Shown piece after piece: positions 26,511 through 42,933 of a stretch of 64,000 nucleotides of DNA; the stretch's first letter is position 1; every line of letters starts with the position of its first letter. The notes beneath the pieces are model-generated. The model saw only the letters and a program-made list of their open reading frames with translations. It was not told the origin of the DNA and did not search any database. The translations under genes were made by a program, and so were the position numbers. The stretch spans positions 1,859,500 through 1,923,499 of the forward strand of contig NZ_JBAJNO010000008.1 of the NCBI RefSeq assembly GCF_036880985.1. The letters run 5' to 3'. Source of the stretch: Limibacter armeniacum. GTDB lineage: Bacteria > Bacteroidota > Bacteroidia > Cytophagales > Flammeovirgaceae.

Positions 26511-26892
26511 TGTAATATGGATTTGTGTGGATGATGTTTCGGCTGCAAAAGTAGAAGGTCAATGTATTATTAAGAAATCTAGAACAAATGTGGTAACAAT
26601 TATTAAATTATATTAATAAATTAAGTGTTTGTTGTACTTTTTAAATATTGTGTATCAAGAATTAGTATTTAAAGCAATTTACATTTAGTTTTACCTTGTA
26701 ATAATGCAATTCATAATTGAATCGCTTATCACAGAAATTCGTTGTTATACCTTAAAATTGATACTAAGATGCTGAAGACAAATTTATATATCCGACTGAA
26801 TGGCTACGCTCTTTTTGAGCAGTGCCTGCCTGCTGTGCAGCGGTGGTGATATTGTTTGTCTGAACGCGTATAGAAATATACCTTTCAATGCA

Positions 26893-26935
26893 AAAAGCCC
26901 TCATCTGCTACAGGCAGGTGAGGGCTTTTTGTATT
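26893..26935 (+). promoter_or_regulatory. Strong stem-loop plus T-run in the rtcB leader, with no upstream plus-strand gene to terminate. Possible attenuator, or the 3' end of a small RNA.
   Basis: AAAAGCCCTCA-tctgctacaggcagg-TGAGGGCTTTT followed by TGTATTT. It lies inside the spurious N-terminal extension of the rtcB ORF. Confidence 0.4.
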
Positions 26936-27004
26936 TGCATGTTTGCGAAAGGCAATACAAGCAAAACCCATAAAAGAATTGAATTAGAACAACAAGCTAT
27001 ATAT

Positions 27005-28581: not shown

Positions 28582-29409
28582 ATGGCTGAAAAAACGGTTT
28601 ATGGTCTTCCCCGCAAAAAGGAAGAAGTAATTTCTCTGTTACAGGAGGCATATGCATCCAACAATTTGGATGAAGCTGAATATGAAAAACGGCTTTCCAT
28701 GGCATATGAGTCCAAAAGTATTGAGGAGTTGAGAGAGGTCATTTACGATTTCCCTCAAAGGGATCGTTTTTTCCCTTTTCAGGAGCAATATGAACCAAAG
28801 CAGACCACATCTTATAGAGGTGTAAAGAGAAAGGAGGTAAACCTGTTTTCGGCACCGAATACACATTTCTCATTATTGGGTAATCAGTATGTGGATGGGC
28901 AGTCAATGGACGCAGGACCTTTGAATGTGATTACAGTACTTGGCGAGAACAACGTTAATTTGAAGAATGTAGCAGCTGAAAATAAACTGAAAGATGTTTA
29001 TATCTCATGCATTCTTGGAAACACTGTCATTGACCTTAGAAATTACAATTTTCAAGGTAGACTCATTGAGCTGGAATTAAAGTCTCTTATAGGGAATGTA
29101 ACGCTTCTGTTGCCTGAAGGTGTTAGGATTAAAAACAAAATGCTTCACCTAATCGGTAACATCAATCGGAGTGTAATAAAAAAGGGAATGAAATGGTTCA
29201 AGCGTCATCATGGAATGAAACTTCCCGTAAGCGATGAGGAAGCAACTGATAACCACTTTTATTGCGACTTTGAATTAAAGCTTAGAGGTTTTAGCCTGAT
29301 TGGGAATGTAGATATACTATATTTTGTAACAGGAGAGAATGCAGATCAAAATGGTCATGATTTTTTTGAAAATGACCCATTTAACCTACGGGATTTTAGA
29401 CGGAAATGA
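28582..29409 (+). CDS. DUF1707 N-terminal domain plus LiaF-like C-terminal beta-strand repeat domain (cell-envelope stress-associated family)
   Basis: N-terminal LLQEAYASNNLDEAEYEKRLSMAYESKSIEELREVIYDFP has the DUF1707 pattern. C-terminal repeats (VIDLRNYNFQG...LIGNVTLLLPEGVRI...LIGNI) resemble the LiaF C-domain. Confidence 0.5.
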   Translation: MAEKTVYGLPRKKEEVISLLQEAYASNNLDEAEYEKRLSMAYESKSIEELREVIYDFPQRDRFFPFQEQYEPKQTTSYRGVKRKEVNLFSAPNTHFSLLGNQYVDGQSMDAGPLNVITVLGENNVNLKNVAAENKLKDVYISCILGNTVIDLRNYNFQGRLIELELKSLIGNVTLLLPEGVRIKNKMLHLIGNINRSVIKKGMKWFKRHHGMKLPVSDEEATDNHFYCDFELKLRGFSLIGNVDILYFVTGENADQNGHDFFENDPFNLRDFRRK

Positions 29410-29413
29410 TCAT

Positions 29414-29773
29414 ATGGGGATGAATTTAACAGGTAGTTGGATCTACGAAGAAGACTTCGGATATGGAATGTCTCGAGGAGTGGCAGAACTAGTGCAGGTC
29501 GGCAATAAAATATCAGGCTCCATTCAGTTAAGAGAAGAAGTTGATGGGGAAGATCCTTTTACCGTTGTACAACAAATAGAAGGCTCTATACAAGATGATA
29601 GGGTAGTGATGGTTGGCGTCTCATATGAAGTAAAAGGTCAGCCTGAAAACTTTGAGTACTGTTTGGATAGCTGGGATGGTCAGTTAACGAATAAAGACCT
29701 GATTGTAGGGGAATCAGAGGATAGTGATGGTCTGATTGGAATATTTGTTTTTAAAAGACAAAAGCCAAAGTAA
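29414..29773 (+). CDS. Hypothetical protein. The ORF track starts it at 29339, overlapping the upstream gene; the ATG at 29414, 5 nt after the upstream stop, is the likely start.
   Basis: 119-aa ORF MGMNLTGSWIYEED... in the same frame as the 29339 ORF. The tight spacing suggests translational coupling. Confidence 0.3.
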   Translation: MGMNLTGSWIYEEDFGYGMSRGVAELVQVGNKISGSIQLREEVDGEDPFTVVQQIEGSIQDDRVVMVGVSYEVKGQPENFEYCLDSWDGQLTNKDLIVGESEDSDGLIGIFVFKRQKPK

Positions 29774-29932: not shown

Positions 29933-30553
29933 ATGGACTTTTTAATTGCAGCCCTTCAGCCTATAAATTTACCATATACCATCTTGATGGCGGTTGTTGC
30001 GCTATATTGGCTTAGTGTAATCATTGGCGTATTAGACTTTGATACCTTTGATATTGACCTAGATGCAGATGCAGATATTGAGGTGGATGGCGAAATAGGA
30101 GCGATGGCTCAAGTATTGCATTATTTCAATATCGGAGAATTGCCATTGATGATAATCTTCAGTTTTTGGTTCCTTTTTATGTGGGTAGGTTCAGTATTGA
30201 CAAATCACTATTTAGGAAATGATTCATGGTTAATAGCTGGAGCTATTTTGATTCCTAATGCCTTTGTTTCACTTATGCTTACCAAGTATGCAACAAAGCC
30301 ATTTCAGAAGGCTTTTTCACACTTGACAAAGGAAGAGGATACATCAGTAATTGGTAAAGAATGTAAATTGATTATACCTGCATCTTTAGATAAAAAAGGA
30401 CAGGCAGAAGTATATACATCAGGCTATCACCAAAGAGTATATGTGAAACCCTTGGATGACAAGAAATTGCAGAAAGGTGATACCGCTTTAATTATTGAAT
30501 TTGACGAGCAGCAGAAATGCTATCTGATAGAACCTTTAGCTACTTTAAACTAA
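29933..30553 (+). CDS. NfeD/YqiJ-like membrane protein (OB-fold partner of SPFH/flotillin proteins)
   Basis: Membrane N-terminal part with an acidic linker (DFDTFDIDLDADADIEVDGEIG), further TM helices and a C-terminal soluble beta-rich domain. It is encoded just upstream of a flotillin gene, as in yqiJ-yqiK and yuaF-floT. Confidence 0.55.
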   Translation: MDFLIAALQPINLPYTILMAVVALYWLSVIIGVLDFDTFDIDLDADADIEVDGEIGAMAQVLHYFNIGELPLMIIFSFWFLFMWVGSVLTNHYLGNDSWLIAGAILIPNAFVSLMLTKYATKPFQKAFSHLTKEEDTSVIGKECKLIIPASLDKKGQAEVYTSGYHQRVYVKPLDDKKLQKGDTALIIEFDEQQKCYLIEPLATLN

Positions 30554-30919: not shown

Positions 30920-33082
30920 ATGATCATTGAAGCAACAGCGATGATAGTGGGGGGTATTGCCCTCGTTTTGCTAGGCTTTTTGGCTATGATTGCCAAGTTC
31001 TACAAGAAGGTGCCGCAAGGTAAGGCTATTGTCAGAACAGGTATGGGTGGACTGAAAGTCTCATTCCAAGGAATTTTTGTAATTCCTGTTATTCACAAGT
31101 GTGAGATCATGGATATCTCACTGAAAAACATCGACATCAGTCGTGAAGGTAAGCAAGGGTTGATCTGTAAGGACAACATGCGTGCTGATATTCGTGTAGC
31201 CTTCTTCGTTAGGGTTAATAACGATCAAAAAGATGTGGCTGCAGTAGCACAAACGATTGGTTGTGAGCGTGCCTCTGAAATAGATCAGCTTAGAACACTG
31301 TTTGAAGCAAAGTTCTCAGAAGCTTTGAAGACAGCTGGTAAGCGTTTCGACTTTGTAGACCTTTACAGTGCAAGGGTAGAGTTCAAGCAAGAGGTGATTG
31401 ACATTATTGGTACTGACCTGAATGGTTATGTATTGGATGACTGTGCCATTGACTACTTGGAGCAAACAGACGTTGAGGAGCTTGATCCTGATAATATCTT
31501 GGATGCGGAAGGTATCAAGAAAATCACCGAGCTGACTGCTACTCAAAAAGTACAGGCAAACTTGGTGAAAAATGATGAAACCAAGCGTATCAAGAAACAG
31601 GACGTAGAAGGCCGTGAGGCTGTACTTGCTCTGGAAAGACAGCAGATTGAAGCAGAAGAAAAGCAGAAGCGTGAAATTGCAGAAGTAAGAGCACGTGAAG
31701 AGGCCTCTGCTGAGAAAATCAGACAAGAAGAAAGACTGAAGTCTGAGCAAGCGAAGATTCAGGTTGAAGAAGAGCTTGGTATTGCTGAAGAGAATAAGCG
31801 TCGCCAAGTATTGGTAGCGGAGAAAAGCAAGGAGAGAACGGAAGCGCTGGAAAACGAAAGAATCCACAAGGAACGTTCTTTGGCAGAAAACGAGCGTGAG
31901 CGCGTTGTAGAAATTGCTAGAATTGAGAAGGAAAGAGCAGTTGAGGAAGAGCGCAAGAACATTCAGGATGTAATCCGTGAGCGTGTATCAGTACAGAAAG
32001 CTGTAGTGATGGAAGAGGAGAAAATCAAGGATACACAGGCATTTGCTGAAGCTGAGCGTAAGAAAGCAGTTGCTATCAAGGAGGCGGAGCAGAAAGCTGA
32101 AGAGGCATTGGTAATGGAGCTGAAATCTGCTGAAGCAGCAAAAGAAGCAGCCAAGATGCAAGCGGAGAAACAACGTACCGAAGCTGCTGCTGAGTTTGAA
32201 ACAGCTAGCCAGAAAGCAGAGGCCTTGAAAATCATGGCTGAAGCGAAGTCTGCTGAAATTGCAGCACAAGGTATGGCTGAAGCACAAGTAACGGAAGCTA
32301 GAGCCTTGGCTAGAGAGAAAGAAGCATTTGCGGAGGCAAGAGCCATTGAGGCGGCTTCAGAAGCAGAAGCAAAAGGTATTGCGGCTAAATCTGAAGCACA
32401 GGCAGAAGGCAACAAGCTTCTGGGTGAAGCGGAAGCGGATGTGCTGAAGAAGAAAATGATCGCCGAAGCGGAAGGTATGGAAGTGAAAGCCAATGCCATC
32501 GAGATGGAAGGCAAGGCTGAAGCAGCTGTGCTGAAAGAGAAAGCCATGGTAGAGGCGCAGCGTATAGAGGCGGAAGCTGAGGCAATGAAGCACTTGGACG
32601 ACGAGACAAGAGCGCTGGAGCAGTTCAAGCTGAAGCTGAATATGGAAAAAGAAGTGGCGCTTGCAAGACTGGAAGTGCAGCGTGAAATGGCAAAAGCACA
32701 GGCTTCTGTGTTAGCTGAGGTTATGAAGTCTGCCAACATTGATATCGTAGGTGGTGAAGCGGCATTTATTGACCGTATCATGAACTCGATCACAATGGGT
32801 AAAAGTGTTGACCACTTCCTGAACAACAGTGAAACCCTGACTGAAGTGAAAGATAACCTGCTTTCAGGAGAGAACGGTAACCTGATTGAAAAAGTAAAGG
32901 GTTTTGTTCAGCAGTTCGGCCTGACTACTGAAGACATCAAAAACCTGAGCATAGCTTCCCTGTTGCACAAGCTGCAAGGTATGGCAGAGACTGCACAGCA
33001 AAAACAAACGCTGGAATCTGCGCATGAAAAAGCTAAAGCTATGGGACTGTCAGAAATGCTGATTTCCAACTGGATTAGATAG
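30920..33082 (+). CDS. Flotillin-family SPFH (band 7) protein with a long Ala/Glu/Lys-rich coiled-coil (EA-repeat) region; FloT/YqiK-like
   Basis: N-terminal TM hairpin, SPFH core (YKKVPQGKAIVRTGMGG...FVIPVIHKCEIMDISL...RADIRVAFFVRV), then ~450 aa of A/E/K/R coiled coil typical of flotillins. Confidence 0.85.
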   Translation: MIIEATAMIVGGIALVLLGFLAMIAKFYKKVPQGKAIVRTGMGGLKVSFQGIFVIPVIHKCEIMDISLKNIDISREGKQGLICKDNMRADIRVAFFVRVNNDQKDVAAVAQTIGCERASEIDQLRTLFEAKFSEALKTAGKRFDFVDLYSARVEFKQEVIDIIGTDLNGYVLDDCAIDYLEQTDVEELDPDNILDAEGIKKITELTATQKVQANLVKNDETKRIKKQDVEGREAVLALERQQIEAEEKQKREIAEVRAREEASAEKIRQEERLKSEQAKIQVEEELGIAEENKRRQVLVAEKSKERTEALENERIHKERSLAENERERVVEIARIEKERAVEEERKNIQDVIRERVSVQKAVVMEEEKIKDTQAFAEAERKKAVAIKEAEQKAEEALVMELKSAEAAKEAAKMQAEKQRTEAAAEFETASQKAEALKIMAEAKSAEIAAQGMAEAQVTEARALAREKEAFAEARAIEAASEAEAKGIAAKSEAQAEGNKLLGEAEADVLKKKMIAEAEGMEVKANAIEMEGKAEAAVLKEKAMVEAQRIEAEAEAMKHLDDETRALEQFKLKLNMEKEVALARLEVQREMAKAQASVLAEVMKSANIDIVGGEAAFIDRIMNSITMGKSVDHFLNNSETLTEVKDNLLSGENGNLIEKVKGFVQQFGLTTEDIKNLSIASLLHKLQGMAETAQQKQTLESAHEKAKAMGLSEMLISNWIR

Positions 33083-33094
33083 TAAAACAAAAAT

Positions 33095-33163
33095 GACTTC
33101 GGTGACTGAGCGAAGCCGAAGTCTTATTTCACCGCAGGTTGACCTGCCTGCGGTGATTTTTTT
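33095..33163 (+). terminator. Tandem stem-loops ending the flotillin operon; the second is a canonical rho-independent terminator
   Basis: GACTTCGG-...-CCGAAGTC, then CACCGCAGG-ttgacctg-CCTGCGGTG followed by ATTTTTTTAAC. Confidence 0.7.
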
Positions 33164-33192: not shown

Positions 33193-33609
33193 ATGGAATC
33201 AATCTTACAACTTAAAAAAGGTGAAATCCATTTGAATGAAGAGGAAGTGGTGATTTTGGATAATGCCAAAAAGCTTAGAATCATGTCTTTGGTTAATTCT
33301 GTTTTGTTCATCATAATGTCTGTCTTGTTTTACCTAAAAGAACTGAAGGGAGAATCATATATGGTTTGGTTATGGGGAGTCATTGGTCTTGCCCATATTG
33401 GGATATTAGTGAACAAAATCTTTTTCATGACAACGGACAGTGTGTTATTCTTGAATGAGATTAATGCAGTGAAAAGACATCCAATAAGAGACGAAATACT
33501 CTATGTGTTCACTAAAGGCAGTCGAAAAAAAAGATGCATAAATGCAGAGCCTTCTATGATCGAAAACCTGAAAAACTACTTTAAGGAGAAAGGGATAAGC
33601 GTAAAATAA
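33193..33609 (+). CDS. Hypothetical two-TM membrane protein
   Basis: 138-aa ORF with two hydrophobic helices (IMSLVNSVLFIIMSVLFYL, VWLWGVIGLAHIGILV). Confidence 0.45.
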   Translation: MESILQLKKGEIHLNEEEVVILDNAKKLRIMSLVNSVLFIIMSVLFYLKELKGESYMVWLWGVIGLAHIGILVNKIFFMTTDSVLFLNEINAVKRHPIRDEILYVFTKGSRKKRCINAEPSMIENLKNYFKEKGISVK

Positions 33610-33620
33610 CCTAAAAGATA

Positions 33621-34040
33621 TGTACACCATACTACCCGTAAATCATGGAGAAATCCACTTGAATGAAGAGGAAGTGGTGATTTTGGATAATGCCAAAAGA
33701 TTAAAAACAATATCGCTCATAGGGTCTGCTATCTGGATCTTATTTTAAATTGGACTCTTGTTAAAAGGAGTGGAGACTTTTACAGAATATTCAACTTTCG
33801 TTGTCTGTACAAGCCCATTGCATGTAATGATGTTGACCTATAATCTTCTATTTGTGAGAAATGACAATGTATTGTTTTTGAGTGATATCAAAGAAGTGCG
33901 TAAACATCGGTTTAAATGAAAATTCATTGAGTGTCTTATTCAAGGCAAGCAGGAAGAGACGAAGGGTTAATGCAAATAAAGAAGAAGTGAATAAGTTAAA
34001 AGAATACTTTCAGCATAAAGGAACTAAGGTGAACTAATAG
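33621..34040 (+). pseudogene. Decayed tandem paralogue of the 33193-33609 gene, with multiple frameshifts and stops
   Basis: Bases 33650-33698 are near-identical to 33224-33272 (GAAATCCA(t/c)TTGAATGAAGAGGAAGTGGTGATTTTGGATAATGCCAAAA). Homologous peptide pieces are recovered only by switching frame three times (...ISLIGSAIWILF*, ...NDNVLFLSDIKEVRKHRFK*, ...NANKEEVNKLKEYFQHKGTKVN*). Confidence 0.55.
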
Positions 34041-34256: not shown

Positions 34257-37200
34257 ATGTCAACAATAGATACGGCGGAAGAAACCAAAAAAGAAACACA
34301 ACTGGACAGCGGAACCTATGAGATTCTTCGCAAGCGATTAGGGTCGCAGGCAGAAGAGCTACAGTCCCGACTGAATAAGCTGAACAGCGCAAGAAAGGAG
34401 ATTTTCGGAGCCTTGGATGCACGTTTGCTGGCAACCGACCGTATCTCGACAGACAATAACTGCGTGCCGAGGGATATGGTACCTGTACTGGAAAACCTCT
34501 TTATCTTCGGTTACAACGTTCATATTGGACTTAAGAAGGAAGCTGCACTGAGTGATGTTTTCAGTGTTTACGCTTACAATAGCACAGATCATTCCTTTCA
34601 TCCTAAAGATTTGAATATCCTTCATGATAAGACATTTGAGAAGGAGTTCAAGGAATTGTATCAGTATTACCGTGATACAGTTTTTGTAAAGTTTTTTGTA
34701 AAGGACAATTTCCTGTACATGATCTTCCGTGTCGGCAAGAATGTAACCGACATCAAAGCCTTCAAATGGCTGATTGAAGAGAATGGGCTGAAATATATAG
34801 ATAATAGAAGTGACCATGAGGTACAGTATCCACGTCAGCATGAGTTTGAGTGGAAGCGTGCTTCAAGAGATGATCACCGCACAGGAGAACACCCGCATGT
34901 GTCCATTATGGATAGGGTATTTGTGGAAACGGTAGGTGGTGACCTGACTATTAAGATTGAGGATAATACTTCAACGGGAGAGGGAATCTATGCGGAAGAG
35001 GTGGAAATTGCTGATCAGACACTGGACGATGCAGAAATCTATTATGCTGATCTGGGTAATCTGATTCTTCTGAAAATGAGACCATTTCAGGAGAAAAAAT
35101 GGCGCTTTATCGTATTCAACGACAAGATAAAGGAAGCTCGCCGAATTGATGCCATTGAAGATTCATGCGTGTTGCTGCCTGATGATCAGGGCATCATTGT
35201 GTCCAATGGTTATTACCTTCAGACGGGTGAGTACAAGCATTTTGATAGCGAGCTTACTGGGTTAAAATTTGAACGTCGTATCCACTCTCCAAATGGGGAG
35301 GACACAATGTATGTGTTCTATCAGCGAGAGCTGGGCGAATATATTCTGCTTTCCTACAATGTGATCGAGAAGCAGGTGGAAAGCCCGATTGCCTGTCATG
35401 GTTATTCCTTCTTCAAAAGTGGTGAACTGGTTTACTTCAAGACTGATGATGAACCGAAGAAGATTCACGGCTTGCAGGTTTGGCAAACACCGTATGTGCA
35501 CCCTGATTTTGTGCAGGCACCTGCACATGCTGATTCCTTCCTGTATAAGGTGGGGAACAAGGACATTGTAAGGGCAATGTCAGATTGTTATGCAGTACTG
35601 AATCTTTGCCGAAAGGAAGATTCTTACGAAGGTTTGTATGCAGATTTGTCAAGGTCTGCGATGGCGGTAACGGACAATTACTACTGGGTAGGTAATGAGG
35701 AAGCATTTGAGCTTTCGGACACACTTAGTGAAATTCGCTTGACAGCTTCTACGGCAATCGAAGAGTTTGAGAAAGTGGCAAGACAGCGTAAGCATGCTGC
35801 CGAACAAACCAAGCTGATTTCAGAGAAAGCAGATGAGCTGCTGAAAGAAGTCGATCGTCGTATCTTCCAGCATGTGGACGAGTTTGTCCGTTTCCTAGCC
35901 GAACTGAGAACGGTAAGGGGAGAAGTGATTTCCCTGAAAGAAGTACGCTATGTGGACCTTTCACTGGTTGATCACTATGAAACGGCATTGGCTGAGAAAT
36001 CCGATAAGCTTTCTGCCAAGTGTGTAGAGTTCCTGCTTCGTGATGACGCCTTGCTACCTTATGTAGAAAAGGTGGAAGCTGTACAGGAAGAAGCAGAAGC
36101 AGTGGAGAAAGTGACGGTAGCCGATGAAGTGGCGGAAGGAATTGCCAAAATTGGCAGTGAGCTGGAGTTACTGATCGATATCGTCTCCAATCTGAAAATT
36201 GAGGATGCGACCCAGACAACACAAATTATTGACCTGATCTCTGATATTTATGCAAGGCTGAACAATGTGAAAGCCAAGCTAAAGGCAAGGAGAAAAGAAC
36301 TGTTGGGAGCGGAAGCCATTGCGGAGTTCAATGCACAGTTGAAACTGATCAATCAGGCAGTTGTCAACTATCTGGATGTTTCAGATACACCACAGAAATG
36401 TGAGGAATACCTGACTAAGCTGATGGTTCAGATGGAAGAGCTGGAAGGCAAGTTCTCGGACTTTGATGAGTTCTTGGGCGAACTGACAGCCAAGCGTGAT
36501 GAAATCTATTCTGCATTTGAAACCCGCAAGACGCAACTTCAGGAGGAGCGAAACAAGCGTGCCATGTCGGTTCAGTCGGCAGCGGAGCGTATCCTGAAAG
36601 GAATCCGCAACAAGCTGAAATCCATCAAGGAGATCAACGAGATCAATTCCTACTTTGCTTCTGACCTAATGGTGGACAAGGTGCGTGACATGATCAAGAA
36701 GCTCCATGAGATTGAGGATGCGCCTAAGGCAGAAGACCTGCAAAGTCAGCTCAAGACCCTGAAGGAAGATGCTGTACGTCAGTTAAAAGACCGTCAGGAT
36801 CTGTTTGTAGGAGGTGACAATGTCATCAAGATGGGACGTCACCATTTTGCGGTCAATACACAGGAATTGGATGCTTCATTGGTATTGAAGGATGATGGAT
36901 TCTTTTACCATTTGGCAGGAACTCAGTTCTATGAGAAAGTGATCAATGAGCAACTGGAGCAAACCCGTGAGGTGTGGCAACAGTCTGTGATTTCAGAAAA
37001 TAAAACGGTTTACCGTGGCGAGTATTTGGCTTATCAGCTATTCAGGGCAATTGAAAACGGTGCTGCCAATACTACATTTAATGAGTTTCAGGAAAAGGAT
37101 GATACTGAAAGGCTCGAAGTGGTACAAGCATTTATGGCATCCCGTTACCATGAAGGTTATACCAAAGGGGTGCACGACAAGGATGCCTTGCTGATACTGG

Positions 37201-39191
37201 AGGCCTTGGTGCTGATGCGCATGAATATTGGCTTGCTCCGTTACAGCCCAGATGCAAGGGCTACAGCAGCCCTGTTTTGGTCAGAAGGCATGGAAAAGGC
37301 AGATAAGCAGCAGCTTGAAAACCGCATCAAGGGCATGTCCCTGATCTTGCAGGTATTCCCTGATTCCAAAGAATACCAATCACTGATTGAGGATTTGGAA
37401 GAGGATATGACCGTCTTTGCCAAAAGCTTGACTTCAGCCCTTCAGTCAACAGCAAAGGAAGCAGCGGCTTATCTGTTCCACGAATTGGCAACCGATACAG
37501 ATTTTATCGCAAGTAAGGAAGCCACACAACTGTGCAAGCAGTTCCTGCAGCATATCGAGATGAAACGGGTACAGCGAGACTATGAGGAAACAAAAAGAAA
37601 ACTGAAAGAAACCGACCTTTTGCACCGACTGGAATGGGAATTGGGTTGGCTGAATGCTTTTGCTTCCACCTTGCCTGAAGAAGAGCAAACGGTTTACGCC
37701 GATTACCTGTCAGAAGCCGCCGTGATTTTGTTGCTTGATGACCTGAACAGCCGAAAGGTTTCCCAATTGTCCGTCAAGCAGGAACTGAAAGGGCTGGCAG
37801 GAGATCATGCAGTCATTACGCAAAGCCAATATCAGTTTGATTACAATGCCTTGATGGAAAAGCTTCAGTCATTCGAAGCCATTCAGGTGCCGAAGTTTGA
37901 GGCATTTATCAATCTGAAGAAAGAAATTGCAGCAGACTTCAAAGCCAAGGTCAAGCTGGACAGCTTTAAGCCGAGAGTGCTTTCCTCCTTTGTCCGCAAC
38001 AAGCTGATCGATGATGTGTACCTGCCATTGGTCGGGGATAACCTTGCCAAGCAGATGGGTACCGTCGGGGAAAACAAACGTACCGACCTGATGGGCTTGC
38101 TTTTGCTGGTTTCGCCTCCGGGTTATGGTAAAACCACCCTGATGGAATATATCGCCAGCCGATTGGGACTGATCTTTATGAAAATCAACGGTCCTGCCAT
38201 CGGGCATCAGGTTACTTCGCTGGATCCTTCGGAAGCACCGAATGCGACCGCAAGGGAAGAATTAGAGAAACTGAACCTCTCCTTCGAGATGGGCGACAAT
38301 GTCATGATCTACCTGGATGATATTCAGCACTGCCACCCTGAACTGCTGCAGAAGTTTATCTCACTTTGTGACGGTCAGCGTAAGATCGAAGGGGTGTACA
38401 AGGGCGTAACCAAAACCTACGATTTCCGAGGAAAGAAAGTCTGTGTCGTGATGGCAGGTAACCCGTACACCGAAAGCGGTGATAAATTCCAGATTCCGGA
38501 CATGCTGGCAAACAGGGCAGATACCTACAACCTCGGTGAGATTATCGGTGATTCGGCTGAGGCATTCAAGCTGAGTTATATTGAAAACTCCCTGACCTCA
38601 AACCCTGTCCTGAACAAGCTGACAAGTAAAAGCAAAAAGGATATCTATACGCTGATCAATATCGCCAAGACAGGCAACAGGGAAGGAGCTGAGTTTGAAT
38701 CCAATATCTCAGGAGAGGAAGTCAATGAGTTTGTGTCGGTGCTTGAAAAGATGCTGAAAGTGCAGGAAGTGGTGCTGCAGGTCAATCAGCAATACGTGCG
38801 TTCGGCAGCGCAGGAAGACGCTTACCGTACAGAACCGCCATTCAAGATGCAAGGATCTTACCGTAACATGAATAAGCTGGCAGAGAAGATTGTCCCAATC
38901 ATGAATACACAGGAACTGGATACACTGATCCTTTCCCATTATGAAGGAGAATCACAGACCTTGACCACAGGAGCTGAAGCCAATATGCTGAAGTTTAAGT
39001 CACTTGTAGGTTGGCAGTCAAATGAGGAAAACCAACGTTGGGATGTTATCTGTCAGACATTCAAGAAGAACAACCAGCTGAAAGGTTTTGGTGACAATAA
39101 CCAGATGGCACAGGTACTGGCACAGATGTCTGCATTTACGGATGGGCTGGAAGCGATTAAGAAAGCATTGGAAAACGGATTAAAAAACTAA
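34257..39191 (+). CDS. Giant 1644-aa protein with a dynein-related AAA+ ATPase domain (AAA_5/MoxR-like) near the C-terminus; N-terminal 1250 aa are uncharacterised beta-rich and long helical/coiled-coil regions
   Basis: Walker A (LLLVSPPGYGKTTLMEY), Walker B (VMIYLDDIQHCHPE), the AAA_5-type motif (VCVVMAGNPYTESGDKFQIPDMLANRAD), and long heptad-like helical stretches between residues ~480 and 1250. Confidence 0.7.
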   Translation: MSTIDTAEETKKETQLDSGTYEILRKRLGSQAEELQSRLNKLNSARKEIFGALDARLLATDRISTDNNCVPRDMVPVLENLFIFGYNVHIGLKKEAALSDVFSVYAYNSTDHSFHPKDLNILHDKTFEKEFKELYQYYRDTVFVKFFVKDNFLYMIFRVGKNVTDIKAFKWLIEENGLKYIDNRSDHEVQYPRQHEFEWKRASRDDHRTGEHPHVSIMDRVFVETVGGDLTIKIEDNTSTGEGIYAEEVEIADQTLDDAEIYYADLGNLILLKMRPFQEKKWRFIVFNDKIKEARRIDAIEDSCVLLPDDQGIIVSNGYYLQTGEYKHFDSELTGLKFERRIHSPNGEDTMYVFYQRELGEYILLSYNVIEKQVESPIACHGYSFFKSGELVYFKTDDEPKKIHGLQVWQTPYVHPDFVQAPAHADSFLYKVGNKDIVRAMSDCYAVLNLCRKEDSYEGLYADLSRSAMAVTDNYYWVGNEEAFELSDTLSEIRLTASTAIEEFEKVARQRKHAAEQTKLISEKADELLKEVDRRIFQHVDEFVRFLAELRTVRGEVISLKEVRYVDLSLVDHYETALAEKSDKLSAKCVEFLLRDDALLPYVEKVEAVQEEAEAVEKVTVADEVAEGIAKIGSELELLIDIVSNLKIEDATQTTQIIDLISDIYARLNNVKAKLKARRKELLGAEAIAEFNAQLKLINQAVVNYLDVSDTPQKCEEYLTKLMVQMEELEGKFSDFDEFLGELTAKRDEIYSAFETRKTQLQEERNKRAMSVQSAAERILKGIRNKLKSIKEINEINSYFASDLMVDKVRDMIKKLHEIEDAPKAEDLQSQLKTLKEDAVRQLKDRQDLFVGGDNVIKMGRHHFAVNTQELDASLVLKDDGFFYHLAGTQFYEKVINEQLEQTREVWQQSVISENKTVYRGEYLAYQLFRAIENGAANTTFNEFQEKDDTERLEVVQAFMASRYHEGYTKGVHDKDALLILEALVLMRMNIGLLRYSPDARATAALFWSEGMEKADKQQLENRIKGMSLILQVFPDSKEYQSLIEDLEEDMTVFAKSLTSALQSTAKEAAAYLFHELATDTDFIASKEATQLCKQFLQHIEMKRVQRDYEETKRKLKETDLLHRLEWELGWLNAFASTLPEEEQTVYADYLSEAAVILLLDDLNSRKVSQLSVKQELKGLAGDHAVITQSQYQFDYNALMEKLQSFEAIQVPKFEAFINLKKEIAADFKAKVKLDSFKPRVLSSFVRNKLIDDVYLPLVGDNLAKQMGTVGENKRTDLMGLLLLVSPPGYGKTTLMEYIASRLGLIFMKINGPAIGHQVTSLDPSEAPNATAREELEKLNLSFEMGDNVMIYLDDIQHCHPELLQKFISLCDGQRKIEGVYKGVTKTYDFRGKKVCVVMAGNPYTESGDKFQIPDMLANRADTYNLGEIIGDSAEAFKLSYIENSLTSNPVLNKLTSKSKKDIYTLINIAKTGNREGAEFESNISGEEVNEFVSVLEKMLKVQEVVLQVNQQYVRSAAQEDAYRTEPPFKMQGSYRNMNKLAEKIVPIMNTQELDTLILSHYEGESQTLTTGAEANMLKFKSLVGWQSNEENQRWDVICQTFKKNNQLKGFGDNNQMAQVLAQMSAFTDGLEAIKKALENGLKN

Positions 39192-39247: not shown

Positions 39248-39622
39248 ATGGACAAGGAAAGGTTATATGACGCATTCGGAGAGCTGTTGTATGCAGTAGC
39301 TTTGGCTGATGGAATGATCCAACCAGAAGAAATCAATAAAATTGAGCAAGTGTTGGCTAATCATTCTTGGGGTAGGGAAATCGAGTGGTCATTCAACTAT
39401 GAAAAAAACAAGAACAATGACCCAAAGCAAGTGTATGAAAAAGCACTTGACACATTGAAACAACATGGGCCTGATCCTGAGTATACATTCCTGATTGAGA
39501 TTTTGGAAGAAGTAGCAAGAGCAAGTGACGGAATTGACGAATCAGAAGACAAGGTGATTTCAGATATGCAGTCATCACTCAAAATGCACTTTATTCAGCA
39601 GGTAGAAGATATGAAGCTGTAA
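39248..39622 (+). CDS. TerB-family (tellurite-resistance TerB-like) small protein
   Basis: LYDAFGELLYAVALADGMIQPEEINKIEQVL is the TerB N-terminal helix-pair signature. It lies 57 nt after the giant ATPase gene and shares its terminator. Confidence 0.65.
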   Translation: MDKERLYDAFGELLYAVALADGMIQPEEINKIEQVLANHSWGREIEWSFNYEKNKNNDPKQVYEKALDTLKQHGPDPEYTFLIEILEEVARASDGIDESEDKVISDMQSSLKMHFIQQVEDMKL

Positions 39623-39677: not shown

Positions 39678-41318
39678 CTAATTGATGTCACTATACGTTA
39701 TGTTTAAAGCATTCAGAATTTCATCGGCTGGAATAATAAAAGTAATTCCTTCTACGCCTTGCCCCACAACTTTGGCATCAATGACACCAATAACTTTACC
39801 ATTATAGATTAATGGACCACCGCTATTCCCAGGGCTTATACTTACATCGGATTGCAAGAATGTTTTTTCCTCAATAGTACGTTTTCCACTGATCATACCT
39901 TTTGAAAGTGTCTGACCTAACGTGATATCAGCAGGAGTGCCAATTGCGATCACAGAAGTTCCTAATTTTACATCATCAGTAGAAATAGGAAGAGGTTTGA
40001 TTACATGATCTATTTTTAAAAGAGCTAAATCTCTTTGTGCATTATAATTAATCAATTTAGCTTCTAGTTTTTGGTCGTTGGAAAGGATGACTTCTAGAGA
40101 ATCCACATCTTCAATTACATGGTAATTAGTGATGATATAACCATCTTCACTGATAGCGAAACCACTACCATGACCTGCTTCTGTATTGACTGTGACAACA
40201 GAATTTACTAAGTCTTCAAACTCTTCTGATATAGGAATGTTTTTTTGTATAGTAATTTTCTGCTCTAAGCTTGTTTCAACACTTTTGTTAGTTAATTCAT
40301 AAAGCTCTGAAGATGTATTTAAAAATTCATGAAAGTTTTGGCTGAATACATTCTCAAAAACACTTCTGATATCTGTAGAAATATTAAACCCTTTGGTACT
40401 AATTTTTTTCTCCATTAGAGTGTTATTAGTTCTTCTCAGTTTTACTTTCCAAATAACTTCAATATTGGATTGAATTGGATATATATCAGCATTGGCATAT
40501 TTTGTAGTTACACTATTGAAGAATTTAGTTACTTCTGCAGTAATGATATACCTTGGTAGCTTTAATGGAGTGAGTGTATTTTTTGATTCAAAATCCGGTA
40601 CTTGAAAGTTTAAATCTTCTAATGACTCATTCACTGCTTTCTCTAATTCAAAATCCTTGAATTGTATGTCTTTTTCCCAATCAATAGTTCTACTATAGCT
40701 GTTATAAGTGATTTTACCAGCTTTTTCCCCCTCTTTCAAATTAATATTGACTTCACTGCAGAATATCAAATCTGTTACATCTTCAACCTTTTTATTTTTT
40801 TTGTAAATCGGTAATGTTAATTCTGAAGACAGATAATCATAAGCCTTTTTATTCGAAGTGATTATATCAATAACGAATGGAAGAGAGAAGCCTATGGCGT
40901 AACTAGAAAGTGCCATTGTAGGGTTTTCATCGTCAATATTGAGTGCTAAGCCTAAACCACCTGGTCCGGTGAGTACGCTCCCTAACCAGGTATTTCCCAA
41001 AGTTGAAGTTGCACGGGTTCTATGTGTAGGAACTTCTATAGTAGTTGTCTCATAACCTTCTTTTGCTAAGGATATATGTAATGGGGCTTCATGCCTTTCA
41101 ACTTTTACCTTCAGTGGCGTTTCACCTACATATTCATGATCAATATAGACCTTAGCGTTAGGTTCATTAGATTTAACTTGTATTTTCTGTTTATGCCCTA
41201 ACATAATTGTATGGCATCCAGTTAAAAAAAGTAGAGGAATCAATAAAAAAGTTATAAATCTCATTTTTTGAATTTTAATTGAATGATAAAAAGGCTTCGT
41301 CAACATGAAGAGCCTCAT
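39678..41318 (-). CDS. Lipoprotein with a PEGA-like domain and a C-terminal trypsin-like (S1) serine peptidase domain; no PDZ domain
   Basis: Lipobox (LFLTGC), PEGA-like KVYIDHEYVGETPLKVKV, catalytic triad contexts (TNYHVIED; DLALLKID; GNSGGPLI). Confidence 0.75.
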   Translation of the reverse strand: MRLFMLTKPFYHSIKIQKMRFITFLLIPLLFLTGCHTIMLGHKQKIQVKSNEPNAKVYIDHEYVGETPLKVKVERHEAPLHISLAKEGYETTTIEVPTHRTRATSTLGNTWLGSVLTGPGGLGLALNIDDENPTMALSSYAIGFSLPFVIDIITSNKKAYDYLSSELTLPIYKKNKKVEDVTDLIFCSEVNINLKEGEKAGKITYNSYSRTIDWEKDIQFKDFELEKAVNESLEDLNFQVPDFESKNTLTPLKLPRYIITAEVTKFFNSVTTKYANADIYPIQSNIEVIWKVKLRRTNNTLMEKKISTKGFNISTDIRSVFENVFSQNFHEFLNTSSELYELTNKSVETSLEQKITIQKNIPISEEFEDLVNSVVTVNTEAGHGSGFAISEDGYIITNYHVIEDVDSLEVILSNDQKLEAKLINYNAQRDLALLKIDHVIKPLPISTDDVKLGTSVIAIGTPADITLGQTLSKGMISGKRTIEEKTFLQSDVSISPGNSGGPLIYNGKVIGVIDAKVVGQGVEGITFIIPADEILNALNITYSDIN

Positions 41319-41325
41319 TTTTAAA

Positions 41326-42933
41326 TTAGTTGATACTGCTATATTTAATATTTAAACCTCTAAATATTTCATTGATAGGTATGATAAATGTAATGCCTTC
41401 AATCCCATTACCCACCATTTTTGCATCGACAATCCCGATTACTTTTCCTTCATAGAGCAGGGGACCACCACTATTTCCTGGGCTTATACTGACATCTGAT
41501 TGTAGGTATTGTTTTTCATCAATCTTACGTTTGCCACTGATCATACCTTTTGATAGGGTTTGACCTAATGCAATATCAGCAGGTGTACCTATGGCAATTA
41601 CTGAGGCTCCAAGTTTAACTGATTCTTTTGAAAGCGGTAAAGGTTTTATAGTATGGTCTATTTTCAGAAGTGCCAAATCTCTCTCTGAGTTGAAGTTTAT
41701 TAGTTTTGCTTCATATTTTTCATTATTAGAAAGAATTACTTCCAATGTGTCGACATCTGCTACAACATGAAAGTTTGTGATAATATAACCATCCTCACTG
41801 ATAGCAAAGCCACTTCCATGACCTGTATTGGTATTGACAGTTACAGCTGATTGTATCCAATCTTCTGCTTCATTAGATACGGGAATACCATCAGGAATTG
41901 AAACTGAAGTTGTCAGTCTCTGACTTTTCTTTTTTACAACTAATTCATAGAACTCGGGAGTAATATTAAGGAACTGGTAAAAGCTATATTCAAAAGTTTT
42001 CTTAAAGGCATCTCTTACTTCTTTGGATGGTGTGTAGTTTTGAACCTTTACAGCTTTTTCAATCAAAACTTCTTCAGTCTTTCTTTTCAGAACCTTCCAT
42101 GTTACTTCAAGGTCAGTTGTCAATGCATAATGTTCAGCGTTTCTTTCTCTAGCGACAGATCTTTGCCCAATGTTGAAAGTAACATGATTGTAGACTTTAG
42201 TTACTTCAGCCTTCAGTATATACCTTGGTAAAAGAATCGGTTGTAATGCTCCTTTTACTTCAAAGTCAGGGACTTTAAATCCATATTTGTCTAATTCCGT
42301 ATTTACGGTTTTTTCTAACTCAAAATCTTGAAAAGTAATATCTTCTTGCCAATCTATTTCTTTAGAGATATTTCCATATTTTACTTTTCCTGCTTCTTCT
42401 CCTTCTTTTAAATCTACTGATACAGAAGTACAGAATATCAAATCTGTTTCTACTTTAATTGTGTCAGGTTTTTTATAGATTGGTAAATTAAGTTCAGAGT
42501 TTAGATATTGGTATTTAGCTCCGGAGTATTTGTCTATTAAAAAAGCTGCAGTAATACCTGTTGCTTGAATGCCTAAATTTAATCCAAAAGTTTCTTCAGA
42601 GTTAGTTGCTCCTACCATACTTGAACCTAAAGCACCTACGATACCACCTAATATTACATTTCCGACAATAGCGTTTCCTTGTAGCCTTTTATAGGATGGA
42701 ATTACATAAGTCGCAGAGTCATAACCATCTTTTGATAAAGTAATGTTGAGGGGTTTTTCTTGTCTTTTAATTCTTTTTTTAAAAGGAGTGACTCCAACAT
42801 ATTCATTATCTATATAGATTTCGGCTTTTTCTATGTTAGAGTCAATACTGATTTTTTGTTTTGTGCCATGAATAATAGTTTGGCAGCTAGATAATAGAGT
42901 TAATACTGATAGTAGAATTGTAGAAAGTTTCAT
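41326..42933 (-). CDS. Tandem paralogue of the preceding PEGA-trypsin lipoprotein
   Basis: Same architecture (lipobox LLSSC; EIYIDNEYVGVTPFKKRI; TNFHVVAD; DLALLKID; GNSGGPLL). About 60% identity to its neighbour across the protease domain. Confidence 0.75.
   Translation of the reverse strand: MKLSTILLSVLTLLSSCQTIIHGTKQKISIDSNIEKAEIYIDNEYVGVTPFKKRIKRQEKPLNITLSKDGYDSATYVIPSYKRLQGNAIVGNVILGGIVGALGSSMVGATNSEETFGLNLGIQATGITAAFLIDKYSGAKYQYLNSELNLPIYKKPDTIKVETDLIFCTSVSVDLKEGEEAGKVKYGNISKEIDWQEDITFQDFELEKTVNTELDKYGFKVPDFEVKGALQPILLPRYILKAEVTKVYNHVTFNIGQRSVARERNAEHYALTTDLEVTWKVLKRKTEEVLIEKAVKVQNYTPSKEVRDAFKKTFEYSFYQFLNITPEFYELVVKKKSQRLTTSVSIPDGIPVSNEAEDWIQSAVTVNTNTGHGSGFAISEDGYIITNFHVVADVDTLEVILSNNEKYEAKLINFNSERDLALLKIDHTIKPLPLSKESVKLGASVIAIGTPADIALGQTLSKGMISGKRKIDEKQYLQSDVSISPGNSGGPLLYEGKVIGIVDAKMVGNGIEGITFIIPINEIFRGLNIKYSSIN

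What the first reader, a model, noticed from the sequence alone, without database searches (positions are those of the whole stretch)
34257..39191. 1644-aa protein with a C-terminal dynein-type AAA+ domain and about 1250 aa of unknown N-terminal architecture
Recognisable motifs sit only between residues ~1270 and 1450: Walker A GYGKTT, Walker B DDIQH, and the AAA_5-specific 'MAGNP...IPDMLANRAD' box. Upstream are a beta-rich region (repeated GYYLQTGEYKHF, YVFYQRELGEYILLSYNV, GELVYFKTDDEP strands) and about 700 aa of helical, coiled-coil-like sequence.

A single AAA_5 module at the C-terminus of a protein this size is atypical for MoxR, whose domain is N-terminal. It is more reminiscent of midasin/dynein-like mechano-enzymes or of large defence ATPases. 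Antisense ORFs inside it (35437-36222) are Pro/Leu-rich artefacts.
Basis: seen in the sequence. Interest (0 to 1): 0.7.

Follow-up and report, generated by a model that had tools for sequence, protein, structure and literature searches.

The report
Giant AAA+ ATPase partnered with flotillin
This 1644-residue protein is a real member of a very widespread but experimentally untouched bacterial family of giant ATPases that almost always sits directly after a flotillin membrane-scaffold gene pair, so it is most likely the motor that remodels that scaffold rather than a DNA-repair, dynein-like or phage-defence enzyme.

Summary
The N-terminal part is catalogued, though its function is untested. Pfam DUF3686 covers residues 34-476 (E 4e-194) and DUF7902 covers 597-681. 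The protein is identical to an NCBI entry named 'DNA repair ATPase' from Limibacter armeniacum.

AlphaFold models (pLDDT 86 and 90) show, in order:
- a diverged beta-propeller
- about 420 aa of spectrin-like helical repeats
- an unassigned beta-plus-helical domain
- one deeply diverged C-terminal AAA+ module

The decisive result is gene context. In 65 of 67 related loci from at least six phyla, a YqiK-type flotillin lies directly upstream on the same strand. A YqiJ/NfeD-like membrane protein precedes it in 61 of 67. About a third of loci also carry CesT/Tir-PspA.

Ravi et al. [quoted passage not shown]

TerB linkage is unique to this genome (0 of 84 other loci). There is no phage or defence signal.

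Best reading: a cytosolic ATP-driven remodeller of the flotillin (and possibly PspA) membrane scaffold. It is a member of a known, uncharacterised kind.

The parts
29933..30553 (+). YqiJ/NfeD2-like membrane protein (206 aa). First gene of the conserved triad.
   Evidence: Pfam YqiJ_N E 9.1e-5. 27% identity, E 1e-8, to E. coli YqiJ. A homologue lies upstream of the flotillin gene in 61 of 67 related loci.
30920..33082 (+). YqiK-type flotillin (SPFH2), 720 aa: TM segment, SPFH domain, long Ala/Glu-rich coiled coil and a family-specific C-terminal tail (residues 596-720, DNA 32705-33079). Second gene of the triad.
   Evidence: 31% identity over 432 aa, E 5e-42, to E. coli YqiK. 48% identity to the planctomycete orthologue. 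Orthologues in distant loci carry Pfam Band_7. Found upstream on the same strand in 65 of 67 loci. The C-tail is conserved in 78 loci but not detectable in E. coli YqiK.
33129..33156 (+). Terminator-like hairpin plus T-run just after the flotillin stop codon.
   Evidence: 11-bp stem with 7 GC pairs, followed by TTTTTTT. A consensus match only; function not shown.
33193..34037 (+). Lineage-specific insertion between the flotillin and ATPase genes: a 138-aa hydrophobic small ORF (33193-33609) and its decayed tandem duplicate (33620-34037).
   Evidence: ORF list and fragment peptides. The DNA alignment shows about 50 nt that are nearly identical (one mismatch) and an internal stop in the second copy. 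Absent from all 84 other loci.
34257..39191 (+). The 1644-aa ATPase (DUF3686-DUF7902-AAA+ family; NCBI name 'DNA repair ATPase'). Third and last gene of the triad.
   Evidence: 100% identical to the Limibacter armeniacum entry. More than 4700 homologues. 1421 representatives of 50%-identity clusters.
34422..35486 (+). Diverged beta-propeller, residues 56-410, about 28 strands, preceded by helix 20-50. It lies within Pfam DUF3686 (residues 34-476).
   Evidence: AlphaFold model with pLDDT mostly 85-95. Foldseek matches Sec12, Elp1, the clathrin terminal domain, CyRPA, PON1 and prolyl-oligopeptidase propellers at E 1e-5 to 1e-3, with low TM of about 0.3.
35538..36803 (+). Helical arm, residues 428-849: 13 helices resembling tandem spectrin-type three-helix bundles. 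Contains DUF7902 (residues 597-681).
36822..37946 (+). Middle domain, residues 856-1230: a small five-strand beta unit followed by a helical domain, with invariant E914, R920, G971, H973, D976 and R1001. Fold family not assigned.
   Evidence: Model pLDDT about 90. Invariant columns. No Pfam match.
37968..39188 (+). AAA+ module with lid and C-terminal helices, residues 1238-1644. Walker A 38121-38138, Walker B 38316-38330, sensor-1/arginine box 38451-38522. A beta-hairpin at residues 1376-1389 sits before the sensor-1 strand.
   Evidence: Foldseek best matches are CbbQ2, NorQ, MCM, RuvB, Lon and ClpA, all at E about 1e-5 and 11-16% identity.
39248..39622 (+). TerB-domain protein (124 aa), 56 nt downstream. 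An adjacent gene that is not part of the conserved module.
   Evidence: Pfam TerB E 1.1e-7. No homologue next to the ATPase in 84 other loci. No conserved downstream gene in 72 loci. Absent in Algivirga, the closest relative.

Best explanation
The gene encodes the soluble ATPase subunit of a three-gene membrane-scaffold module, yqiJ-like, then flotillin, then the giant AAA+ ATPase. This module belongs to the wider phage-shock-protein (PSP) envelope-stress repertoire.

Shown here:
- family membership
- domain order: N-terminal helix, diverged beta-propeller, spectrin-like helical arm, unassigned middle domain, one AAA+ module
- conservation of all nucleotide-handling residues
- near-obligate operon linkage with a YqiK-type flotillin and its YqiJ/NfeD partner
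- frequent linkage with CesT/Tir-PspA

Inferred mechanism:
1. The AAA+ modules assemble into a ring in the cytosol.
2. The propellers, held out on the helical arms, dock on the cytoplasm-facing flotillin assembly. A candidate docking site is the roughly 125-residue C-terminal tail found only in ATPase-linked flotillins.
3. ATP binding and hydrolysis drive assembly, disassembly or client release from the flotillin (and possibly PspA) scaffold during membrane stress.

This would be a role analogous to Vps4 on ESCRT-III, NSF on SNAREs, or FtsH with HflK/C.

In this genome the module is the 'abbreviated' form without PspA. The ATPase is separated from the flotillin gene by a lineage-specific insertion and is followed by a lineage-specific TerB gene.
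For: Family:
- PF12458 645.6 bits, PF25472 97.6 bits and PF00004 30.5 bits.
- 100% identical NCBI entry and more than 4700 homologues.
- Full-length architecture is kept down to 27-30% identity.

Context:
- Flotillin orthologue upstream on the same strand in 65 of 67 loci with more than 3.5 kb of upstream sequence, YqiJ-like in 61 of 67, median gap 249 nt and minimum 2 nt.
- The same triad, with Pfam Band_7, occurs in Actinomycetota-clade members at 27-29% identity.
- Also seen in planctomycete, Pontibacter, Sediminitomix and Algivirga loci and on plasmid pQBR103.
- The window proteins are homologous to E. coli YqiK (E 5e-42) and YqiJ (E 1e-8).
- CesT/Tir-PspA sits just upstream of yqiJ in 23-24 of the loci. 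PspA is also adjacent in L087 and on pQBR103.
- No conserved downstream or intervening gene, so the ATPase closes the module.
- Identities of the ATPase and the flotillin to the window proteins co-vary across 64 loci, r = 0.62.
- The flotillin C-tail is conserved in 78 loci, including distant ones, and is absent from the ATPase-less E. coli YqiK.

Catalytic competence:
- K1292, D1354, D1355, N1402, R1420, R1524 and R1536 are invariant.
- The same DDIQ Walker B occurs in E. coli DnaA, which I know from the literature to be a genuine ATPase (alignment).

Structure.

Literature: Ravi et al. 2024 (PMC11237479, section 19) describe the same operon and infer a chaperone-like role in assembling membrane-linked complexes.
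Against: No experiment exists for any member: the library holds no paper mentioning DUF3686, PF12458, or 'DNA repair ATPase' together with flotillin.

Physical contact between the ATPase and flotillin, ring formation and ATP hydrolysis were not tested and cannot be tested with these tools.

Walker B is DD rather than DE. This may mean slow, switch-like hydrolysis rather than processive remodelling.

No canonical aromatic pore loop was identified.

In this window a terminator-like hairpin and a 1.2-kb insertion separate the flotillin gene from the ATPase gene, so co-transcription here is uncertain.

Two of 67 loci (L022, L024) lack an upstream flotillin.

The many invariant polar residues in the propeller and the middle domain hint at a ligand-binding or enzymatic function that this model does not explain.
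Confidence: 0.55

Rival explanations
1. The ATPase works mainly on PspA (bacterial ESCRT-III) polymers, as a functional analogue of Vps4. Flotillin and YqiJ serve only to recruit PspA to the membrane.
For: CesT/Tir-PspA lies directly upstream of the triad in about 24 loci. PspA is adjacent in L004, L087 and pQBR103. Ravi et al. 2024 draw the Vps4/ESCRT-III parallel for other PspA-linked AAA+ ATPases, and suggest abbreviated operons may work with PspA encoded elsewhere. An SPFH protein recruits PspA in B. subtilis (Scholz et al. 2021, as cited in PMC10936438).
Against: PspA is linked in only about a third of loci, against 97% for flotillin. No PspA or CesT homologue was found anywhere in this 64-kb window. 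There is no MIT-like domain, and no Pfam hit of that kind.
Confidence: 0.2
2. It is a slow nucleotide-dependent switch or structural scaffold. A coat-like protein made of a propeller plus helical repeats organises flotillin microdomains, with ATP acting as an assembly signal rather than an energy source for unfolding.
For: Invariant DD Walker B identical to DnaA's DDIQ. The architecture of a beta-propeller followed by helical repeats resembles the clathrin terminal domain plus linker and other coat proteins. Spectrin-like repeats are typical of membrane skeletons.
Against: Sensor-1 Asn, the candidate arginine finger and the sensor-2 arginines are all invariant, as expected of a hydrolysing AAA+ ring. 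The fold matches are weak (TM about 0.2-0.35, 6-12% identity).
Confidence: 0.15
3. It is an anti-phage defence or conflict ATPase.
For: Large multidomain ATPases and TerB domains both occur in conflict systems (from my own knowledge). A PLD/HKD-family gene lies next to the triad in some loci. There are a few plasmid-borne copies.
Against: The best PADLOC hit is 13 bits, E 0.012. No nuclease, peptidase or other effector domain was found. There is no match in 50,697 phage records. Only 13 of 72,556 plasmid records match, and most are megaplasmids, chromids or chromosome-sized records. The neighbours are membrane-stress genes, not defence genes. TerB is next to the ATPase in 0 of 84 other loci. 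The very high cross-phylum conservation (46-57% identity) is unlike fast-evolving defence genes.
Confidence: 0.07
4. It is a DNA-repair ATPase, as named in NCBI and Pfam.
For: Only the database name, plus weak sub-threshold similarity of about 45 P-loop residues to RuvB (20 bits against thresholds of 282 and 299).
Against: There is no DNA-binding, nuclease or SMC/ABC-type head domain. The ATPase is AAA+, not the ABC type of SbcC, RecN or SMC. No repair genes are conserved nearby; the conserved partners are membrane proteins. No paper supports the name. From my own knowledge, 'ATPase involved in DNA repair' is the old COG label for SbcC-like coiled-coil proteins, and was probably transferred through coiled-coil similarity.
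Confidence: 0.03

Closest known systems
[quoted passage not shown] 2024, mSystems, PMC11237479). Equivalent to the Pfam DUF3686 + DUF7902 + AAA architecture and to NCBI's 'DNA repair ATPase'.
   Same: The same family and the same operon partners. This window carries the 'abbreviated' YqiJ-flotillin-ATPase form that the paper mentions.
   Different: Nothing at family level. Additions made here:
- quantified linkage (65 of 67 loci)
- structural models showing spectrin-like repeats and an extra middle domain
- a flotillin C-tail specific to ATPase-linked flotillins
- lineage-specific extras in this genome: TerB, a small-ORF insertion, and a SHOCT/Toastrack gene upstream
HflK/C-FtsH and prohibitin-m-AAA protease (an SPFH scaffold paired with an AAA+ machine)
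   Same: An SPFH-family membrane scaffold functionally paired with an AAA+ ATPase. The pairing is cited in PMC2636767 and PMC1468410.
   Different: FtsH is a membrane-anchored classical AAA protease. This ATPase is predicted to be soluble, has no protease domain, belongs to a different AAA+ lineage and pairs with a cytoplasm-facing flotillin (SPFH2) rather than HflK/C.
Vps4 with ESCRT-III (Snf7/PspA superfamily)
   Same: A proposed role as the ATP-driven remodeller of a membrane-bound polymer. There is also genomic linkage to PspA in about a third of loci.
   Different: No MIT domain and no detectable specific sequence relationship. It is roughly four times larger, and its primary conserved partner is flotillin, not PspA.
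MoxR-class AAA+ (CbbQ, NorQ; Pfam AAA_5)
   Same: Nominally the best structural matches for the AAA+ core, with a beta-hairpin before the sensor-1 strand. AAA_5 scores just above its threshold.
   Different: MoxR proteins are about 300 aa and pair with VWA-domain partners; no VWA gene is found here. The matches are no better than those to MCM, RuvB and Lon. No beta-hairpin is modelled within helix 2.
Clathrin heavy-chain terminal domain plus linker, and spectrin repeats
   Same: The N-terminal architecture of a beta-propeller followed by helical repeats.
   Different: An architectural resemblance only: 6-12% identity, TM about 0.2-0.35. There is no evidence of homology or of coat formation.

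Membership tests
DUF3686-DUF7902-AAA+ family ('DNA repair ATPase' in NCBI; flotillin-operon AAA+ of Ravi et al. 2024) | Pfam PF12458 (DUF3686) match above the gathering score | tested here: met
   645.6 bits against a cut-off of 25, covering residues 34-476 and the whole 448-position profile.
DUF3686-DUF7902-AAA+ family ('DNA repair ATPase' in NCBI; flotillin-operon AAA+ of Ravi et al. 2024) | Pfam PF25472 (DUF7902) in the helical region and a single C-terminal AAA+ P-loop module | tested here: met
   DUF7902 scores 97.6 bits against 26. PF00004 scores 30.5 bits against 21.2 at residues 1282-1402. Homologues have the same precomputed architecture.
DUF3686-DUF7902-AAA+ family ('DNA repair ATPase' in NCBI; flotillin-operon AAA+ of Ravi et al. 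2024) | Encoded directly after a band-7/flotillin gene and a YqiJ/YuaF-type membrane protein gene | tested here: met
   In the window, yqiJ-like is at 29933-30553 and flotillin at 30920-33082, both on the same strand. In relatives the figures are 65 of 67 and 61 of 67.
MoxR / AAA_5 (dynein-related) AAA+ | Pfam PF07728 match above threshold and better than other AAA models | tested here: inconclusive
   23.5 bits against a cut-off of 22, but PF00004 scores higher at 30.5 bits. Among homologues the precomputed AAA_5 hit is present in some and absent in others.
MoxR / AAA_5 (dynein-related) AAA+ | Compact protein of about 300 aa that works with a VWA-domain partner encoded nearby | tested here: not met
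   The protein is 1644 aa with the AAA+ module at its C-terminus. No VWA domain occurs in the neighbouring genes of the window or in the conserved module.
MoxR / AAA_5 (dynein-related) AAA+ | Helix-2 beta-hairpin insert plus a pre-sensor-1 beta-hairpin | tested here: inconclusive
   The model shows a hairpin at 1376-1389 before the sensor-1 strand. Between strands beta2 and beta3 it shows only a loop and helices. This rests on a predicted structure.
Midasin / dynein-type mechano-enzymes | Several (six) concatenated AAA+ modules in one polypeptide | tested here: not met
   There is one Walker A/B pair and one AAA hit at 1282-1405. The rest of the protein is a propeller and helical domains.
Known anti-phage defence ATPases (PADLOC models) | Significant match to a defence-system protein model, or a defence-island or mobile-element context | tested here: not met
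   The best hit is mad8 at 13.1 bits, E 0.012. There is no phage match, and plasmid copies are rare and mostly on very large replicons.
SMC / SbcC / RecN-type 'ATPases involved in DNA repair' | ABC-type head split by a coiled coil (N-terminal Walker A; C-terminal signature motif and Walker B) | tested here: not met
   Walker A and Walker B lie 60 residues apart in a C-terminal AAA+ fold. There are no SMC_N or ABC Pfam hits.
TerB-linked (Ter-type) stress systems | Conserved genomic linkage of the ATPase with a TerB-domain gene | tested here: not met
   TerB is adjacent only in this window. It is found in 0 of 84 other loci by tblastn. Downstream genes of 72 loci form no cluster larger than 2. 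No TerB Pfam hit appears in the annotated loci inspected.

The most novel reading that the evidence does not exclude
The protein is the long-missing energy-consuming partner of bacterial flotillins. It would be a six-armed, coat-like AAA+ machine (propeller tips on spectrin-like arms) that docks on the C-terminal tails of the flotillin vault and uses ATP to open, disassemble or recycle it during membrane repair. That would make flotillin microdomains an active, ATP-driven system. The invariant polar pockets in the propeller and the middle domain might add a ligand-sensing or enzymatic step.
Probability: 0.3. Interest if true: 0.8.

Novelty: new member of a known kind. Interest (0 to 1): 0.45.

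Why it matters
What bacterial flotillins actually do, and how their large assemblies are built and taken apart, is still unsettled.

A giant ATPase that is encoded next to a flotillin in 97% of the loci examined gives a concrete handle on that question. It is 46-57% identical across Bacteroidota, Planctomycetota, Verrucomicrobiota, Desulfobacterota, Clostridia and Fibrobacterota. It also occurs in Actinomycetota and Gammaproteobacteria.

The result also shows that the name 'DNA repair ATPase', propagated through thousands of genome annotations, has no support. A name pointing to membrane-scaffold or envelope-stress biology would fit better.

The idea itself is not new. The operon was described computationally in 2020/2024, and this window adds one more member with lineage-specific decorations.

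Tried and rejected
- **Literature.** Searches for DUF3686, PF12458, TerB + flotillin + AAA+, and 'DNA repair ATPase' + flotillin found nothing. The Ter-system paper of Anantharaman et al. 2012 could not be retrieved. Hinderhofer et al. 2009 describe SPFH2-NfeD operons but do not mention the ATPase. The SO1377 knockout paper concerns a flotillin without this ATPase.
- **TerB linkage.** Rejected.
- **Defence role.** Rejected as the primary reading.
- **DNA repair.** Rejected.
- **Solved relatives.** Sequence and profile searches of the PDB found none. The flotillin also has no significant PDB sequence match and no Pfam hit of its own. Its identity had to be shown through E. coli YqiK and through Band_7 hits in orthologues.
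- **Middle and C-terminal regions.** Pfam scans of residues 850-1240 and 1440-1644 gave only noise.
- **DnaA.** Only the shared DDIQ Walker B was seen; there is no overall similarity.
- **RNA.** No Rfam family in 26-41 kb.
- **Promoter and terminator scan.** Counts were not above shuffled expectation.
Full report
**1. Observation**

The window holds one uninterrupted ORF at 34257..39191 (+), ATG start, 1644 aa.
- Walker A GYGKTT at residues 1289-1294
- Walker B DDIQH at 1354-1358
- MAGNP at 1399-1403
- IPDMLANRAD at 1413-1422

In alignments of 19 and 54 homologues reaching down to about 27-30% identity, K1292, D1354, D1355, N1402 and R1420 are invariant. So are two downstream arginines, R1524 and R1536.

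The antisense ORFs at 35437-36222 exist. In homologous loci they give only weak matches (E >= 0.01), and the longer ones are broken by stops, so they are artefacts of the sense frame.

**2. What the protein is**

The N-terminal part is not unrecognisable.
- Pfam DUF3686 (PF12458, labelled 'ATPase involved in DNA repair') matches residues 34-476 over its whole length at E 4.4e-194.
- DUF7902 matches residues 597-681 at E 5e-28.
- The P-loop region matches generic AAA (PF00004, 30.5 bits) better than AAA_5 (23.5 bits, cut-off 22).
- NCBIfam gives only sub-threshold RuvB P-loop similarity. PADLOC gives nothing meaningful.

The protein is 100% identical to 'DNA repair ATPase [Limibacter armeniacum]'.

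The family is large and its members keep their length. More than 4700 homologues were found by word search. There are 1421 representatives of 50%-identity clusters, most of the full-length ones being 1600-1900 aa.

These span Bacteroidota, Planctomycetota, Verrucomicrobiota, Desulfobacterota, Clostridia and Fibrobacterota, at 46-57% identity over the full length. A more distant clade (27-39% identity) lies in Actinomycetota (Ilumatobacter, Streptomyces, Actinoplanes), Myxococcota, Acidobacteriota and Gammaproteobacteria. Copies are also found in Proteus, Vibrio, Photobacterium, Halomonas and Deinococcus, and on plasmid pQBR103.

**3. Structure**

Two AlphaFold2 models were built on 54-sequence alignments. 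The model of residues 1-900 has mean pLDDT 86. The model of residues 840-1644 has pLDDT 90 and pTM 0.77. In order they show:
- A helix at residues 20-50.
- About 28 beta strands at residues 56-410.
- Thirteen helices at residues 428-849.
- A five-strand beta unit followed by a helical domain, residues 856 to about 1230.
- An AAA+ core (beta1 at 1282-1285, beta3 ending at Walker B, a beta-hairpin at 1376-1389 before the sensor-1 strand at 1395-1401), followed by a lid and long C-terminal helices.

Foldseek against the PDB assigns the beta region to beta-propellers. Matches include Sec12, Elp1, the clathrin heavy-chain terminal domain plus linker, CyRPA, PON1 and prolyl-oligopeptidase propellers. 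E-values run from 1e-5 to 1e-3, but TM is only about 0.3 and identity 6-10%, so the propeller is diverged.

The AAA+ core matches CbbQ2 and NorQ (MoxR class), MCM, RuvB, Lon and ClpA. All these matches are at E about 1e-5 and 11-16% identity. A family profile finds only about 35 P-loop residues in any solved structure.

The module is therefore a deeply diverged AAA+ lineage with a pre-sensor-1 hairpin. Assignment to the dynein/MoxR AAA_5 clade is at best marginal.

The Walker B motif DDIQ is the same variant as in E. coli DnaA.

Residues 850-1240 and 1440-1644 have no Pfam family.

**4. Context, the decisive evidence**

Upstream on the same strand lie two genes.
- A 206-aa protein with a YqiJ_N match and E 1e-8 to E. 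coli YqiJ.
- A 720-aa protein that has no Pfam hit of its own but is 31% identical over 432 aa to the E. coli flotillin YqiK, E 5e-42.

I fetched 80 related genomic loci plus loci for individual homologues and searched them with the window's proteins.
- Of 67 loci with more than 3.5 kb of upstream sequence, 65 have the flotillin orthologue (35-65% identity) directly upstream on the same strand.
- 61 of the 67 also have a detectable YqiJ-like gene.
- The gap between the flotillin and ATPase genes has a median of 249 nt and a minimum of 2 nt.
- The triad holds in members only 27-29% identical, where the middle gene carries Pfam Band_7.
- Nothing is conserved downstream of the ATPase or between the flotillin and the ATPase.
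- About 24 loci carry CesT/Tir-PspA immediately upstream of yqiJ.
- On pQBR103 the triad is appended to a PspA-polyamine operon.
- Planctomycete loci carry a PLD-family gene just upstream of the triad; a related gene lies nearby, in other positions, in four further loci.
- Identities of the ATPase and the flotillin to the window proteins co-vary across loci, r = 0.62, n = 64.
- The C-terminal 125 residues or so of the partner flotillin are conserved in 78 loci, including the distant ones. They have no counterpart in E. coli YqiK, which has no such ATPase downstream.

**5. Prior description**

Ravi et al. 2024 (mSystems; preprint 2020; PMC11237479, section 19) describe exactly this operon. It combines:
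- CesT/Tir-PspA
[quoted passage not shown] - a YqiJ/YuaF-type 3TM protein
- sometimes a PLD hydrolase

They add that abbreviated operons without PspA are widespread. They infer a chaperone-like role in assembling membrane-linked complexes. I found no experimental work on any member.

**6. Specifics of this window**

This is the abbreviated form. No PspA or CesT homologue occurs anywhere in the 64 kb.

The flotillin stop is followed by a terminator-like hairpin at 33129-33156. Next come a 138-aa hydrophobic small ORF and a frame-broken duplicate of it at 33620-34037. Then comes the ATPase. None of this insertion is seen elsewhere.

The TerB gene 56 nt downstream is also unique to this genome. 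It is absent from 84 other loci, and the downstream genes of 72 loci form no family. The closest relative, Algivirga pacifica (67% identity), has an unrelated downstream gene.

The gene upstream of yqiJ (28582-29409) combines a SHOCT-like DUF1707 with a LiaF C-terminal (Toastrack) domain. Ravi et al. list both as PSP-system partners, but it is not conserved next to the triad.

**7. Mechanism**

Shown:
- family membership
- domain order
- invariant nucleotide-handling residues
- near-obligate linkage to flotillin and YqiJ, and frequent linkage to PspA

Inferred:
- The protein is cytosolic, since no membrane-anchoring domain was detected among its Pfam matches or in the models.
- The AAA+ modules form a ring.
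- The propellers on spectrin-like arms dock on the cytoplasm-facing flotillin assembly, possibly through the family-specific flotillin tail.
- ATP turnover drives assembly, disassembly or client release of the scaffold during envelope stress.

This is a role like Vps4 on ESCRT-III, or like FtsH with HflK/C. I give it about 0.55 overall. The partnership itself is well above 0.9; the remodelling mechanism is about 0.4-0.5.

Rivals:

| Rival | Probability |
|---|---|
| PspA is the true substrate | 0.2 |
| A slow switch or coat-like scaffold, given the DD Walker B and the coat-like N-terminal architecture | 0.15 |
| Defence ATPase | 0.07 |
| DNA repair | 0.03 |

The database name 'DNA repair ATPase' has no support. 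The protein has no DNA-related domain, it is AAA+ rather than ABC/SMC type, and its conserved neighbours are membrane proteins.

**8. Unexplained**

Both the propeller (T65, Q254, E279, N346-G-E-D349, N368, H404) and the middle domain (E914, R920, G971, H973, D976, R1001) hold clusters of invariant polar residues. These look more like ligand-binding or catalytic sites than plain docking surfaces. The middle domain has no assigned fold family.

**9. Verdict**

It is wrong on the leads it proposed (dynein/midasin type, defence, TerB).

This is a member of a known but only computationally described kind. It is interesting as an experimental target, but it is not a new discovery.

Noticed in passing
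window 33193-34037 (+): A 138-aa hydrophobic small ORF (33193-33609) is followed by a decayed tandem duplicate (33620-34037). The copy keeps about 50 nt nearly identical to the first (one mismatch) but is broken by a stop and frame shifts. The pair is inserted between the flotillin and ATPase genes only in this genome.
   Followed up: partly
window 33129-33156 (+): A strong terminator-like hairpin (11-bp stem, 7 GC pairs, T7 tail) lies 47 nt after the flotillin stop. In this species the ATPase may therefore be transcribed separately, whereas in relatives the two genes are often only 2-250 nt apart.
   Followed up: no
window 28582-29409 (+), overlapping ORF 29339-29773: The gene just upstream of yqiJ combines a SHOCT-like DUF1707 with a LiaF C-terminal (Toastrack) domain. 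Both are described in the literature as PSP envelope-stress partners. It is not conserved next to the triad in other loci.
   Followed up: partly
window 32705-33079 (flotillin residues 596-720): The partner flotillin carries a C-terminal tail of about 125 residues that is conserved in 78 related loci, including Actinomycetota-clade ones. It is undetectable in E. coli YqiK, which has no ATPase partner. This tail is a candidate docking site for the ATPase.
   Followed up: partly
window 34257-39191; residues 65, 254, 279, 346-349, 368, 404 and 914, 920, 971-976, 1001: Clusters of invariant polar residues lie in the propeller (including an N-G-E-D motif) and in the unassigned middle domain (including G-V-H-D-x-D). 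They suggest a ligand-binding or catalytic site that the remodeller model does not explain.
   Followed up: no
window 30920-33082 and 34257-39191: The flotillin and ATPase genes are both about 45.8-45.9% GC, against about 40% for the window and 33-39% for most of the other nearby genes examined (RtcB, at 43.7%, is the exception). This may reflect Ala/Glu-rich composition or past transfer; it was not resolved.
   Followed up: no
window 39678-41318 and 41326-42933 (-): Two tandem paralogous genes (546 and 535 aa) each combine an N-terminal PEGA domain with a C-terminal trypsin-like peptidase domain. They are convergent with the TerB gene.
   Followed up: no
window 26888-28414 (+); L076 16661-18037, L080 17967-19343: An RtcB RNA ligase gene lies 1.5 kb upstream of the module here. 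RtcB homologues also occur within 10 kb of the ATPase in L076 and L080, with a partial one at the edge of L019. Three of 84 loci is probably coincidence.
   Followed up: no
L092 (P. fluorescens SBW25 plasmid pQBR103, 85452-104356): On this 425-kb plasmid the YqiJ-like, SPFH and ATPase genes are appended to a PspA / rhomboid / DUF2491 / DUF350 / DUF1190 / glutathionylspermidine-synthase cluster. Two PSP-associated operon types are thus joined in a genetically tractable host.
   Followed up: partly
L022 and L024: These two loci (a Desulfobacteraceae MAG and a Bacteroidia MAG) have full-length ATPase genes but no flotillin within 7-10 kb upstream. They are exceptions whose context was not examined further.
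   Followed up: partly
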